Positions 8,749 through 9,574 of a stretch of 11,287 nucleotides of DNA are shown piece after piece. Numbering within the stretch: position 1 is the first letter of the stretch; the number at the start of each line of letters is the position of its first letter. The DNA comes from a virus. The notes beneath the pieces were generated by a model, which saw nothing but the letters and a program-made list of their open reading frames with translations, searched no databases and had not been told where the DNA came from. The stretch lies in UHGV virus genome UHGV-0262291; one strand, written 5' to 3'. Made by a program: the position numbers and the translations under genes.

Positions 8749-8762
8749 GTAACAATAGTTAC
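8749..8762. promoter_or_regulatory. Operator-like palindrome GTAAC-N4-GTTAC (site 1, overlaps the candidate PR spacer and -10)
   Basis: GTAACAATAGTTAC. A perfect TTGACA -35 for the minus-strand promoter lies at plus 8770..8775 (read as TGTCAA); the -10 is weak. Confidence 0.5.
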
Positions 8763-8796
8763 ATAACAATGTCAACCATAGCAACATCACTTGGTA

Positions 8797-8810
8797 GTAA
8801 CATTGGTTAC
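8797..8810. promoter_or_regulatory. Operator-like palindrome GTAAC-N4-GTTAC (site 2, abutting the cI ATG)
   Basis: GTAACATTGGTTAC, 48 bp centre-to-centre from site 1 and ending 1 nt before the ATG at 8811. A candidate -10 TAACAT (8798..8803) ends 7 nt before the ATG, consistent with a leaderless PRM-like transcript. Confidence 0.5.
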
Positions 8811-9485
8811 ATGAAAAACACTATCAGCGAACGTATTCGGAATCGTCGAAAAGACGTTGGATTAACCCAACAGCAGGTTGCGAAAGCAATCGGCATATCT
8901 CGTGTATCCGTAACAAAATGGGAAAATGGCTCTTCAAAACCTGACGGTGAGAATTTGTATCTACTGTCAAAATTGCTTTCCAAATCTCCTGAATGGATTC
9001 TTTATGGAAAGGACGGTCACGATAAAGCCGATGATCTGCGTCTGAATCAGTACCCTTACATTAGTGACAACATCGCCCGGTTGCCCGTTTTAACGTGGGA
9101 ACAGGCTGGTTATTGGGATATGAGTTGTCCAGTAACCGAGATTCCTGGTATTAAGAATTGGGTTGATGTCATGACAAAAACCGCTGAAAACTCTTTTTTA
9201 TTGCATGTTGAGGGAGATGCGATGACAAACTCTAACGGCCTCCCAACCATCCCCGACGGATCTACCGTGCTGATCACACCATGCTCAAGTAACATTAGAG
9301 AACTGGTGGGAAAAATAATCTTAATCCAATTGGAAGGAACGCCAAACGTAACACTAAAAAAAGTTGCGATTGACGGACCAAACATCTATCTGTTGTCACT
9401 GAATCCGCTTTACAAACCCATCGAACTGAATGGTGGTTACACCATTAAAGGTAAAGTTTCACAAATACATCAATACTTAGACTGA
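8811..9485 (+). CDS. CI-like phage repressor (N-terminal HTH plus C-terminal LexA/S24-like domain with Ser-to-Ala at the nucleophile position)
   Basis: HTH LTQQQVAKAIGISRVSVTKWENG. The C-terminus aligns with lambda CI: EGDAM vs EGNSM, then PDG, LKK (catalytic Lys conserved) and LNPLY vs LNPQY. The ORF track starts at a TTG at 8712; in-frame ATGs at 8769 and 8811 are possible starts and neither has an SD. 8811 is chosen because it leaves a normal-length N-terminus before the HTH. Confidence 0.7.
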   Translation: MKNTISERIRNRRKDVGLTQQQVAKAIGISRVSVTKWENGSSKPDGENLYLLSKLLSKSPEWILYGKDGHDKADDLRLNQYPYISDNIARLPVLTWEQAGYWDMSCPVTEIPGIKNWVDVMTKTAENSFLLHVEGDAMTNSNGLPTIPDGSTVLITPCSSNIRELVGKIILIQLEGTPNVTLKKVAIDGPNIYLLSLNPLYKPIELNGGYTIKGKVSQIHQYLD

Positions 9486-9490
9486 GTCAG

Positions 9491-9517
9491 AACCCGCATT
9501 CATTGCGGGTTTTTTAT
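9491..9517 (+). terminator. Rho-independent terminator after the CI-like gene
   Basis: Hairpin AACCCGCA-(5 nt loop)-TGCGGGTT at 9491..9511 followed by TTTTAT. Confidence 0.7.
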
Positions 9518-9558
9518 GCCCTCAAATGTACCTTTTGCAACATTGTATTGACTCGAAA

Positions 9559-9574
9559 GGTAACTCTTGTTACC
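9559..9574. promoter_or_regulatory. Operator-like palindrome GGTAAC-N4-GTTACC (site 3, candidate OL/PL region for the plus-strand operon)
   Basis: Same half-sites as the two sites between cI and cro; a -35-like TTGACT lies immediately upstream at 9548..9553. The -10 is not clear. Confidence 0.45.

What the first reader, a model, noticed from the sequence alone, without database searches (positions are those of the whole stretch)
8749..9574. Three copies of a GTAAC-N4-GTTAC operator palindrome define the immunity circuitry
Two sites lie between cro and cI (8749..8762 and 8797..8810). A third site (9559..9574) lies after the cI terminator, next to a -35-like TTGACT, where a PL-type promoter for the plus-strand small-gene operon would be expected. 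A perfect TTGACA for the cro promoter sits between the first two sites. The 48-bp spacing of the first two sites differs from the roughly 24-bp spacing of lambda OR sites.
Basis: seen in the sequence. Interest (0 to 1): 0.4.

Follow-up and report, generated by a model that had tools for sequence, protein, structure and literature searches.

The report
P22-type prophage repressor operators
The three GTAAC-N4-GTTAC palindromes are almost certainly the binding sites of this E. coli prophage's CI-like repressor, laid out as in phage P22 and the Qin prophage, so this is an ordinary immunity switch with a binding-site sequence I could not find described.

Summary
GTAACNNNNGTTAC occurs exactly three times in the window, at 8749-8762, 8797-8810 and 9560-9573, against 0.01 expected. 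It occurs nowhere else in the roughly 32.6-kb prophage or in 35 kb of flanking chromosome.

In 27 related loci from other Enterobacterales and phages (repressors 42-89% identical) the same palindrome occupies the same three positions with no change in spacing. Two relatives with a different recognition helix carry a different palindrome at those positions.

Two corrections apply:
- **Spacing.** The 48-bp spacing is not unusual. It is the OR1-to-OR3 distance, and it is also 48 bp in P22 and in Qin. A weak middle site (8772-8785) lies 23 and 25 bp from the two outer sites.
- **Extra site.** A weak second left-operator site lies at 9528-9541.

The site at 8797-8810 abuts the most likely cI start codon (8811, not the annotated 8769).

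The repressor's catalytic serine is replaced by alanine, which predicts a repressor that cannot cleave itself during the SOS response.

Verdict: a new specificity within a known kind of switch. It is common in E. coli (702 of 5426 complete genomes). Interest is low to moderate.

The parts
8749..8762 (.). OR1-type operator (site A), GTAACAATAGTTAC. It lies between the -35 and -10 elements of the leftward cro promoter.
   Evidence: Exact match. Top score, 22.1 bits, with a matrix built from relatives only. Invariant in 5 close relatives. Present 48 bp upstream of site C in all 28 stacked loci.
8772..8785 (.). Degenerate OR2-type middle site (site B), TCAACCATAGCAAC. It matches 6 of the 10 specified positions. 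Its centre is 23 bp from site A and 25 bp from site C.
   Evidence: Relatives have CAAACAACAGTTAC at this exact position. In the window it scores only -3.4 bits, rank 22. Its right half varies among close relatives. Whether it is functional is uncertain.
8797..8810 (.). OR3-type operator (site C), GTAACATTGGTTAC. It abuts the cI start codon at 8811 and contains a -10-like TAACAT at 8798-8803.
   Evidence: Exact match. A perfect or nearly perfect palindrome abuts the ATG in the 27 relatives of this specificity; only L019 has 3 nt between. This is the same position as P22 OR3.
8770..8775 (-). -35 hexamer TTGACA of the PR-type cro promoter.
   Evidence: Read from the sequence. The equivalent hexamer in relatives is TTGCTA, TTGCAT or TTGACA, in a conserved block.
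8746..8751 (-). Inferred -10 element TACTCT of the PR-type promoter, with an 18-nt spacer. It overlaps the last 3 bp of site A.
   Evidence: Read from the sequence. Relatives have TACCTT with a 17-nt spacer. The consensus promoter scan did not call it.
8504..8719 (-). cro-like gene, 71 aa.
   Evidence: Pfam P22_Cro, E = 2.9e-16. RefSeq annotates it as a Cro/CI family regulator.
8082..8507 (-). YdaT-family gene in the position that cII occupies in lambda.
   Evidence: Pfam YdaT_toxin, E = 5e-10.
8811..9485 (+). CI-like repressor, 224 aa. It has an HTH_3 N-terminal domain and an S24 peptidase C-terminal domain in which Ala137 replaces the catalytic Ser.
   Evidence: Pfam. Aligns with lambda CI and with the P22 C2 N-terminal domain. 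The start at 8811 is supported by an invariant Met and by 17 of 28 loci lacking any in-frame upstream ATG. GDAM replaces GDSM.
9489..9516 (+). Intrinsic terminator after cI.
   Evidence: Hairpin of -16 kcal/mol, z = -4.3, followed by a U run. A hairpin with a T run occupies the same place in relatives.
9528..9541 (.). Weak OL2-type site, GTACCTTTTGCAAC, with 3 mismatches. It starts 32 bp upstream of OL1.
   Evidence: Fourth-best score in the window, 12.6 bits against 2.75 for the fifth. It lies where relatives have OL2, such as GTAACTTTTGGAAC, 32-35 bp upstream of OL1. On its own it falls within the range of shuffle maxima.
9548..9553 (+). -35 hexamer TTGACT of the PL-type promoter.
   Evidence: TTGA is invariant and the fifth base is C in 24 of 25 loci, always 6 nt before OL1.
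9560..9573 (.). OL1-type operator, GTAACTCTTGTTAC. It lies between the -35 and -10 elements of the PL-type promoter.
   Evidence: Exact match. Scores 19.9 bits. Conserved with its promoter context in 25 loci.
9571..9576 (+). Inferred -10 element TACCTT of the PL-type promoter, with a 17-nt spacer.
   Evidence: TAC[AC]TT is conserved at this position in 25 loci. The consensus promoter scan did not call it.
9758..9913 (+). ydfA (DUF1391), the first gene of the rightward ydfABC-dicB-type operon controlled from the PL-type promoter.
   Evidence: Pfam DUF1391, E = 4e-28. RefSeq annotation of the identical prophage continues with ydfA, ydfC, dicB, an exonuclease, xis and int.

Best explanation
This is the immunity region of a lambdoid prophage integrated next to ompW in E. 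coli. Its layout matches phage P22 immC and the dicA-dicC-dicB region of the Qin prophage.

Dimers of the CI-like repressor (8811-9485) are inferred to recognise the 14-bp palindrome GTAAC-N4-GTTAC through their helix-turn-helix domain (recognition helix SRVSVTKWENG). The Cro-like protein probably binds the same sites.

- **Site A (8749-8762)** lies between the -35 TTGACA and the inferred -10 TACTCT of the leftward promoter. Repressor bound there would shut off cro, the YdaT-like gene and the replication genes.
- **OL1 (9560-9573)** lies in the same way between TTGACT and TACCTT of the rightward promoter. Repressor bound there would shut off the ydfABC-dicB-exonuclease-xis-int operon.
- **Site C (8797-8810)** abuts the cI start codon and covers the only -10-like hexamer for cI (TAACAT). 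Occupancy by Cro, or by excess repressor, would turn cI down, as at OR3 of lambda and P22. The cI mRNA is probably leaderless or nearly so.
- **Weaker sites** at 8772-8785 (OR2-type) and 9528-9541 (OL2-type) may be filled cooperatively or may be vestigial.

Shown here: the sites, their statistics, their conservation, their covariation with the recognition helix, and the shared geometry. Inferred: binding, promoter use, transcription start points and the regulatory logic.
For: - **Statistics.** Three exact sites against 0.01 expected. None elsewhere in 67.7 kb covering the whole prophage and its flanks.
- **Gene content.** A P22_Cro-family gene and an HTH_3 plus S24 repressor are divergently transcribed. 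The repressor's N-terminal domain aligns with that of P22 C2 (E = 1.4e-12) and the full length aligns with lambda CI.
- **Footprint in relatives.** In an ungapped stack of 28 loci from about 15 genera, site A, the -35 block, the right half of site B and site C are information-rich. The 11 nt between sites B and C, and the sequence upstream of site A, are unconstrained.
- **PL region.** The same pattern holds at the PL-type promoter in 25 loci: TTGAC, then 6 nt, then the operator, then TAC[AC]TT.
- **Independent matrix.** A matrix built only from relatives ranks the three window sites first, at 19.6-22.1 bits, and 9528-9541 fourth.
- **Covariation.** mEp390 and YeP1 have the recognition helix RVTVTGWESG instead of RVSVTKWENG. 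They carry TAGGAT..CTAC palindromes at the same positions, including one abutting the ATG.
- **Geometry.** P22 OR1, OR2 and OR3 have centres 23 and 25 bp apart, and OR3 abuts the c2 ATG. In Qin, Oc and the dicA-proximal site are 48 bp apart, and dicBp has the order OL2, TTGACC, OL1. DicA binding to Oc has been shown experimentally (PMC3441716), and DicA represses dicBp (PMC10448788).
Against: - No binding, footprinting or transcript-mapping data exist for this repressor, and no paper in the searched library contains the site sequences.
- The consensus promoter scan found no sigma-70 promoter between 8400 and 9900. The -10 hexamers I assign match the consensus at only 3 of 6 positions.
- The middle site is poor in this window, at -3.4 bits.
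- In Qin, DicA reportedly bound only Oc and not the middle or dicA-proximal sites (PMC3441716). Not every site-like sequence in this architecture is therefore necessarily used.
- Many of the relatives share nearly identical intergenic DNA. Part of the conservation therefore reflects shared ancestry rather than independent constraint.
Confidence: 0.85

Rival explanations
1. The right operator here has only two working sites, A and C, 48 bp apart, and the middle site is vestigial. The switch would then work without the pairwise OR1-OR2 cooperativity of lambda and P22. One strong site would repress cro, perhaps also activating cI as DicA does at Oc, and one strong site would autoregulate cI.
For: The middle site matches only 6 of 10 positions and scores -3.4 bits. 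Its right half differs in each of 5 close relatives: GCAAC, ACAAC, GTGAC, GTAAC and GGTAC. In this clade sites A and OL1 are perfect palindromes, whereas most relatives have one mismatch there. In Qin, DicA was reported to bind Oc but not Om or Oa, and to activate dicA from Oc (PMC3441716).
Against: The position of the middle site, 23 and 25 bp from its neighbours, is strictly kept in all 28 loci. Its last two bases (AC) and the CAA of its left half are conserved. The repressor keeps a lambda-like C-terminal domain of the kind that mediates cooperativity. Weak middle sites can be filled cooperatively.
Confidence: 0.3
2. The palindromes are bound by a different protein, such as the YdaT-like protein or a host regulator, and not by the CI-like repressor.
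For: No direct binding data exist. A GTAACnnnnGTTAC string appears in one paper on regulators of nitrogen-oxide metabolism in other bacteria (PMC1274295).
Against: The palindrome changes together with the repressor's recognition helix in mEp390 and YeP1. It stays constant wherever the helix SRV[ST][VI]TKWE is kept, across genera with different hosts. The sites sit exactly where the experimentally defined P22 repressor operators lie.
Confidence: 0.04
3. Site C is conserved only because it lies inside the cI coding sequence, as the RefSeq annotation with a start at 8769 implies. It would then not be a regulatory site.
For: PGAP starts the gene at 8769, which gives a 238-aa protein. Close homologues in the protein database also carry this 14-aa extension.
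Against: Distant homologues start at the Met that follows the site. In 17 of 28 loci there is no in-frame ATG upstream before a stop codon. The upstream ATG in this clade is simply the reverse complement of the -35 element plus one base (TTGACAT). The conservation has the form of a DNA palindrome, and the same palindrome recurs outside any ORF at sites A and OL1.
Confidence: 0.05

Closest known systems
Phage P22 immC: C2 repressor, Cro, OR1-OR3 and OL
   Same: The repressor's N-terminal domain aligns with that of P22 C2 (E = 1.4e-12), and the full-length proteins are 36% identical. The cro gene belongs to Pfam P22_Cro. The operator centres are 23 and 25 bp apart, and the promoter-distal operator abuts the repressor ATG. 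The PL region has the order distal operator, TTGACx, proximal operator.
   Different: The operator sequence differs: a 14-bp GTAAC-N4-GTTAC core here against the 18-bp ATTTAAG-N4-CTTAAAT type in P22. The middle site here is degenerate. The catalytic Ser is Ala. The leftward operon carries a YdaT-like gene, and the PL operon starts with ydfA, with no recognisable N gene or boxA/boxB.
Qin cryptic prophage of E. coli K-12: DicA, DicC, the operators Oc/Om/Oa, and dicBp
   Same: The downstream operon is the same (ydfA, ydfB, ydfC ... dicB), and the last roughly 40 nt of the ydfA leader (window 9723-9760) are identical. The cro-proximal and repressor-proximal palindromes are 48 bp apart. At dicBp an operator lies between -35 and -10, with a second operator upstream. 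DicA represses dicC and dicBp and activates its own gene from Oc (PMC3441716, PMC10448788).
   Different: The DicA operator is TGTTAG-N6-CTAACA. DicA is 135 aa, lacks the S24 domain and is relieved by the antirepressor Rem. The repressor here is full length with an S24 domain, but that domain lacks the nucleophile Ser.
Phage lambda OR and OL with CI and Cro
   Same: The repressor and cro genes are divergent, and OR1 and OR3 are about 47-48 bp apart. Operators overlap PR, PRM and PL. The C-terminal domain aligns with that of lambda CI, including the Ala-Gly site and the Lys. From my own knowledge of lambda, its cI mRNA from PRM is leaderless, and the same is probable here.
   Different: The N-terminal fold family and the operator sequence differ. 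Here the sites lie about 10 bp closer to the cI start than I recall for lambda. There is no rexAB between cI and PL. OL sites are spaced 32-35 bp apart rather than about 24 bp.
Sequenced phages with the same operator type: Escherichia phage vB_EcoS-733R5, Klebsiella phage ST13-OXA48phi12.2, Pantoea phage AH07, Pectobacterium phage ZF40, and the repressor locus found in a Hamiltonella defensa genome
   Same: They have the same recognition helix and the same GTAAC-N4-G[GT]TAC sites at the same positions.
   Different: Their repressors are only 42-52% identical to this one and keep the catalytic Ser. In none of these records are the operators annotated, and I found no paper describing them.

Membership tests
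Lambdoid immunity region (CI-type repressor, Cro, OR and OL) | Divergently transcribed repressor (HTH plus S24/LexA-like C-terminal domain) and small Cro-like gene | tested here: met
   HTH_3 (E = 3.5e-17) and Peptidase_S24 (E = 9.5e-17) on the plus strand. P22_Cro (E = 2.9e-16) on the minus strand.
Lambdoid immunity region (CI-type repressor, Cro, OR and OL) | Repeated inverted-repeat operators in the cI-cro intergenic region that overlap the divergent promoters | tested here: met
   Two exact palindromes lie in the 91-bp intergenic region. One lies between TTGACA and the inferred -10 of the cro promoter, and the other covers the -10-like TAACAT before cI. Both are conserved in 28 loci.
Lambdoid immunity region (CI-type repressor, Cro, OR and OL) | The same operator at a PL-type promoter on the far side of cI | tested here: met
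   9560-9573 lies between TTGACT and TACCTT, after the cI terminator. The arrangement is conserved in 25 loci.
Lambdoid immunity region (CI-type repressor, Cro, OR and OL) | Three operators at OR spaced about 23-25 bp apart | tested here: inconclusive
   The geometry is kept (23 + 25 bp). The middle site in this window matches only 6 of 10 positions and scores -3.4 bits. It is better preserved in the more distant relatives.
Lambdoid immunity region (CI-type repressor, Cro, OR and OL) | The repressor and Cro physically bind the operators | not testable with these tools
   The only evidence is indirect: covariation of the palindrome with the recognition helix and identity of position with the P22 operators.
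Lambdoid immunity region (CI-type repressor, Cro, OR and OL) | SOS induction by RecA-stimulated self-cleavage, which needs an Ala-Gly site and a Ser-Lys dyad | tested here: not met
   Ala99-Gly100 and Lys183 are present, but the nucleophile position is Ala137 (GDAM, codon GCG at 9219-9221). It aligns with Ser149 of lambda CI. 39 of 44 homologues that cover the motif have Ser there.
P22 immC type | Repressor N-terminal domain homologous to that of P22 C2, and a Cro of the P22_Cro family | tested here: met
P22 immC type | P22 and phage 21 immunity specificity (operator ATTTAAG-N4-CTTAAAT) | tested here: not met
   The operators here are GTAAC-N4-GTTAC. The P22 operators read from L034 are different. 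The recognition helices also differ: SRVSVTKWENG here against SNVAISQWERS in P22.
Qin DicA/DicC/dicB module | A ydfABC-dicB operon directly downstream of the repressor gene, under a repressor-controlled promoter | tested here: met
   ydfA, ydfC and dicB are annotated in the identical prophage. The window's YdfA is DUF1391. The ydfA-proximal leader is identical to that of K-12 Qin.
Qin DicA/DicC/dicB module | A short DicA-type repressor (135 aa, no S24 domain) that recognises TGTTAG-N6-CTAACA | tested here: not met
   The repressor here is 224 aa and has an S24 domain. Its operator is different.

The most novel reading that the evidence does not exclude
This clade may be a P22-type switch that has been retuned and partly domesticated. 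The repressor keeps its S24 fold and its Ala-Gly site but has lost the catalytic serine, so it would be blind to RecA. At the same time three of its operators have become perfect palindromes, the cro promoter has a consensus -35, and the cooperative sites (OR2, OL2) have decayed. If so, about one in eight sequenced E. coli strains carries a locked, non-cooperative repressor whose main role is to keep the toxic dicB operon and the prophage replication genes silent. That would be an intermediate stage between an inducible CI and the truncated DicA of Qin.
Probability: 0.2. Interest if true: 0.45.

Novelty: new member of a known kind. Interest (0 to 1): 0.25.

Why it matters
**Regulatory map.** The result gives a concrete map for a prophage immunity type present in 702 of 5426 complete E. 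coli genomes but absent from deposited phage genomes. The map contains five candidate operators, two inferred promoters and a likely corrected cI start codon.

**Shared specificity group.** It defines an operator consensus, A-[TG]-GTAAC-W4-GTTAC-[AC]-T, shared by prophages of many Enterobacterales and by sequenced phages including ZF40, AH07 and 733R5. This predicts which of them should be immune to one another.

**Control of a toxic operon.** The controlled operon encodes the cell-division inhibitor DicB. The state of this switch therefore bears on filamentation and phage-resistance phenotypes in strains other than K-12.

No new principle is involved.

Tried and rejected
- **Promoter and terminator scan of 8400-9900.** No promoter was called, and the cI terminator was missed. 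I assigned the promoters from the conserved -35 and from weak -10 hexamers, and confirmed the terminator by folding.
- **Rfam.** At gathering threshold the only hit in the window is sok, at 3932-4107. At a permissive threshold over 8700-9800 the only hits are weak ones to the Trp and Leu leaders that overlap the cI terminator.
- **Search of phage records.** Megablast and blastn of the immunity region found only the flanks, or short weak matches within cI, and no phage with this immunity region.
- **Literature.** A search for six versions of the site sequence returned one paper, on regulators of nitrogen-oxide metabolism. A search for ZF40 operators found nothing useful.
- **Site C as coding sequence.** I considered that site C is conserved only as coding sequence and rejected this.
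- **Direct cooperation between sites A and C.** I judged this unlikely. The spacing is about 4.6 helical turns, and a middle site exists in relatives.
- **Structured leader RNA of relatives.** A covariance model of this element (R1) was searched against the window with default filters and found nothing at E up to 10.
- **nutR- or putR-like second copy of the leader.** A short-word BLAST of the window's own leader against the rest of the window gave only one 13-nt match, at the 3' end of a coding gene (6950..6938), which I judged to be chance.
- **N-like protein.** None was found as the first gene after the PL-type promoter in relatives. The downstream genes vary.
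Full report
**1. The observation**

A search for GTAACNNNNGTTAC finds three exact matches in the 11,287-bp window and no others. They are at 8749-8762 (GTAACAATAGTTAC), 8797-8810 (GTAACATTGGTTAC) and 9560-9573 (GTAACTCTTGTTAC). Dinucleotide-preserving shuffles give 0.01 matches on average, and none of 200 shuffles reaches three. Allowing two mismatches adds four scattered hits, and that total is not clearly above chance. Read directly, the third site is a perfect 18-bp palindrome at 9558-9575. TTGACA lies on the minus strand at 8775..8770, and TTGACT lies at 9548-9553.

The window's immunity region is 100% identical to a prophage of E. coli DLI.5a inserted next to ompW. 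That prophage is about 32.6 kb and partly decayed. Scanning all of it plus 35 kb of flanking chromosome, 67.7 kb in total, finds only the same three exact sites.

**2. The genes around the sites**

- On the minus strand, 8504-8719 is a 71-aa protein of the Pfam family P22_Cro. It is followed by a YdaT-family gene (8082-8507) and then by replication genes.
- On the plus strand there is a repressor with an HTH_3 domain and a Peptidase_S24 domain.
- A strong terminator hairpin follows at 9489-9513.
- After the third site come ydfA, ydfB-like and ydfC genes. In the identical prophage these continue into dicB, an exonuclease, xis and int.

**3. The start of cI**

RefSeq starts the gene at 8769, giving 238 aa. 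An alignment with 13 homologues shows an invariant Met at the position encoded by 8811, and all the distant homologues (219-223 aa) begin there. In 17 of 28 related loci there is no in-frame ATG upstream before a stop codon. The upstream ATG in this clade is simply the reverse complement of the -35 hexamer plus one base (TTGACAT). I therefore place the start at 8811, so site C abuts the start codon. No Shine-Dalgarno sequence can fit between them. This makes a leaderless or nearly leaderless cI mRNA likely, which is an inference.

**4. Evidence from relatives**

A protein search found 45 homologues. I collected 20 loci from genomes of other Enterobacterales and one other gammaproteobacterium, with repressors 43-52% identical. 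I also collected closer relatives at 66-89% identity and six phage genomes.

Every locus whose repressor keeps the recognition helix SRV[ST][VI]TKWE has a perfect or nearly perfect GTAAC-N4-GTTAC just before the cI ATG. It abuts the ATG in all of them except L019, where 3 nt intervene. Each also has a second copy, usually GTAACAAAAGGTAC, exactly 48 bp upstream. Most have a weaker copy, typically CAAACAACAGTTAC, exactly 25 bp upstream. Where the DNA after cI is conserved, two or three copies follow the cI terminator.

An ungapped stack of 28 loci needs no insertion or deletion across 82 bp. Information content is high in site A, in the -35 block, in the right half of site B and in site C. It is near zero in the 11 nt between sites B and C and upstream of site A.

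A second stack of 25 loci, anchored on the promoter-proximal left operator, shows TTGA invariant with C as the next base in 24 of 25. Six free bases follow, then the operator, then TAC[AC]TT. Among five close relatives, site A, the -35, site C and OL1 are invariant while the surrounding sequence changes.

A position weight matrix built only from the relatives' sites ranks the three window sites first, at 22.1, 19.9 and 19.6 bits. It ranks 9528-9541 fourth at 12.6 bits, and the next hit scores 2.75.

**5. Specificity control**

Phages mEp390 and YeP1 encode repressors 42% identical to this one, with the recognition helix changed to RVTVTGWESG. At the same positions, including the one abutting the ATG, they have a different palindrome: TAGGATATCTTAC and TAGGATTGCCTAC. 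P22 (helix SNVAISQWERS) and Qin DicA (helix SHVSVSQWERG) likewise have their own palindromes in the same places. The palindrome therefore changes with the recognition helix. This is the best evidence available without an experiment that the repressor, and presumably its Cro partner, reads these sites.

**6. The 48-bp spacing**

Using the known P22 operator consensus from memory, I read the following by eye from the P22 sequence:

| Element | Coordinates in L034 | Centre |
|---|---|---|
| OR1 | 352-369 | 360.5 |
| OR2 | 375-392 | 383.5 |
| OR3 | 400-417 | 408.5 |
| c2 ATG | 418 | |

The P22 centres are thus 23 and 25 bp apart, 48 bp in total, and OR3 abuts the start codon. In the window the centres are 8755.5, 8778.5 and 8803.5, the same 23 and 25 bp, and the ATG is at 8811.

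In Qin, Oc (1869-1886) and the dicA-proximal palindrome (1919-1932) are also 48 bp apart. The middle site exists in the family but is degenerate in this clade: TCAACCATAGCAAC matches 6 of 10 positions and scores -3.4 bits, and its right half differs in each close relative. Whether it still works is open. For Qin it was reported that DicA binds Oc but not the middle or dicA-proximal sites, and that DicA at Oc represses dicC and activates dicA (PMC3441716).

**7. How it most likely works**

- **Leftward promoter.** It reads TTGACA (8775..8770), an 18-nt spacer, then TACTCT (8751..8746). Site A fills the spacer and the first half of the -10.
- **Rightward promoter.** It reads TTGACT (9548-9553), a 17-nt spacer, then TACCTT (9571-9576). 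OL1 sits in the same relative position.
- **Repression.** Repressor at these two sites would exclude RNA polymerase. It would hold cro, the YdaT-like gene and replication silent on one side, and ydfABC, dicB, the exonuclease, xis and int silent on the other.
- **Autoregulation.** Site C covers TAACAT (8798-8803), the only -10-like hexamer placed to start transcription at about 8810-8811. Cro, or excess repressor, bound there would turn cI off.
- **Second left operator.** A weak site at 9528-9541 lies where relatives have OL2, 32-35 bp upstream of OL1.

All promoter assignments are inferences. The consensus scan called none of them, because the -10 hexamers match at only three of six positions.

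**8. Comparison with known systems**

The closest characterised systems are P22 immC and the Qin dicA-dicC-dicB module. The downstream operon and the last part of the ydfA leader are shared with Qin. PMC10448788 describes dicBp as the PL analogue, with DicA as its repressor. What differs here is the operator sequence. I did not find it in any paper in the searched library, and it is not annotated in any of the phage records I opened.

This immunity region is absent from deposited phage genomes. It is present over at least 80% of its length in 702 of 5426 complete E. coli genomes. It is therefore a new specificity within a well-known kind of switch.

**9. A feature that does depart from the norm**

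The S24 motif G-[DE]-S-M reads GDAM in this repressor. Ala137 (GCG, 9219-9221) aligns with the catalytic Ser149 of lambda CI, while the Ala-Gly cleavage site and the catalytic Lys are kept.

The same Ala is in the two largest close clusters (499 and 187 member sequences) and in a Salmonella relative. 39 of the 44 homologues that cover the motif have Ser. From established knowledge of LexA and lambda CI, where changing this Ser to Ala abolishes self-cleavage, this repressor should not respond to RecA. That would make the prophage non-inducible by the usual route, a situation resembling DicA, which lacks the domain altogether.

**10. Verdict**

The spacing remark is explained by the standard three-site plan. 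The system is an ordinary lambdoid immunity region with an operator sequence I could not find described. Interest is low to moderate, and it rests mostly on the serine-to-alanine change and on how common the module is in E. coli.

Noticed in passing
window 9219-9221 (codon for Ala137 of the repressor at 8811-9485): The catalytic serine of the S24 self-cleavage domain is alanine (GDAM instead of GDSM or GESM). The Ala-Gly site (residues 99-100) and the catalytic Lys183 are kept. The same change is in the largest close protein clusters and in a Salmonella relative. 39 of the 44 homologues that cover the motif have Ser. This predicts a repressor that RecA cannot inactivate.
   Followed up: partly
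L006:3805-3880 and the equivalent positions in L003, L005, L008, L011-L014, L016-L018, L020, L021, L028 (ZF40), L030 (AH07) and L031 (YeP1). Not present in the window.: A roughly 76-nt conserved RNA element starts within a few bases of the predicted PL transcript start in relatives. It has an outer stem and a 5-bp hairpin with clear compensatory changes: CCCCA/TGGGG, CCGGT/ACCGG, CCCGA/TCGGG, CCGAT/ATCGG and CTACC/GGTAG. The 12-nt loop is conserved (GGCGUAUGAAGA). The window's own PL leader, which shares AAGTAGCC and GGCGTATGAA with this element, had no Rfam match. The element is unannotated in 44 phage records, including SfV, SfII, ST64B, phiNP and ZF40. Its 5' part resembles the P22 leader upstream of nutL, but the genes downstream vary and no N-like protein is evident.
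   Followed up: partly
window 9583-9746: The window's own PL leader is a different conserved non-coding module. It is shared at 74-91% identity with E. coli phages of other immunity types (689R5, Tritos, Evi, 666R9, 640R1 and others) and with an Actinobacillus phage. The core TAAGTAGCCAGCC-GAGGC..A.GAACATGA.GGC is invariant. RNAalifold places an irregular hairpin at about 9602-9645 with several compensatory pairs. The sample is small (8 sequences) and the single-sequence fold is not unusually stable (z = +0.8).
   Followed up: partly
window 3932-4107 (minus strand) and the ORF at 3782-3994 (minus strand): There is a strong Rfam match to the sok antitoxin RNA (121.7 bits). It overlaps an ORF whose counterpart in the identical prophage is annotated as a Hok-family toxin. 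This indicates a type I toxin-antitoxin module inside the prophage.
   Followed up: no
window 8769-8810: The RefSeq start codon for the repressor (8769) is probably wrong. That ATG is the reverse complement of the cro promoter's -35 hexamer plus one base. The 14-aa extension it creates is absent from all distant homologues.
   Followed up: yes
L001, L035 and L036 (E. coli DLI.5a prophage next to ompW): The carrier prophage in DLI.5a is defective. The capsid, tape-measure, tail-fibre, methyltransferase and RusA genes are annotated as partial pseudogenes. An ompW fragment marks the far attachment site, next to an IS5-like element.
   Followed up: partly
L013:990-1093 (minus strand, the direction of the PR operon): The covariance model of the PL leader element gives a weak second hit (14.6 bits, E = 0.14) about 2 kb downstream of the cro promoter in one relative. 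If real, it would parallel the paired nutL/nutR or putL/putR sites. It is not significant as it stands.
   Followed up: no
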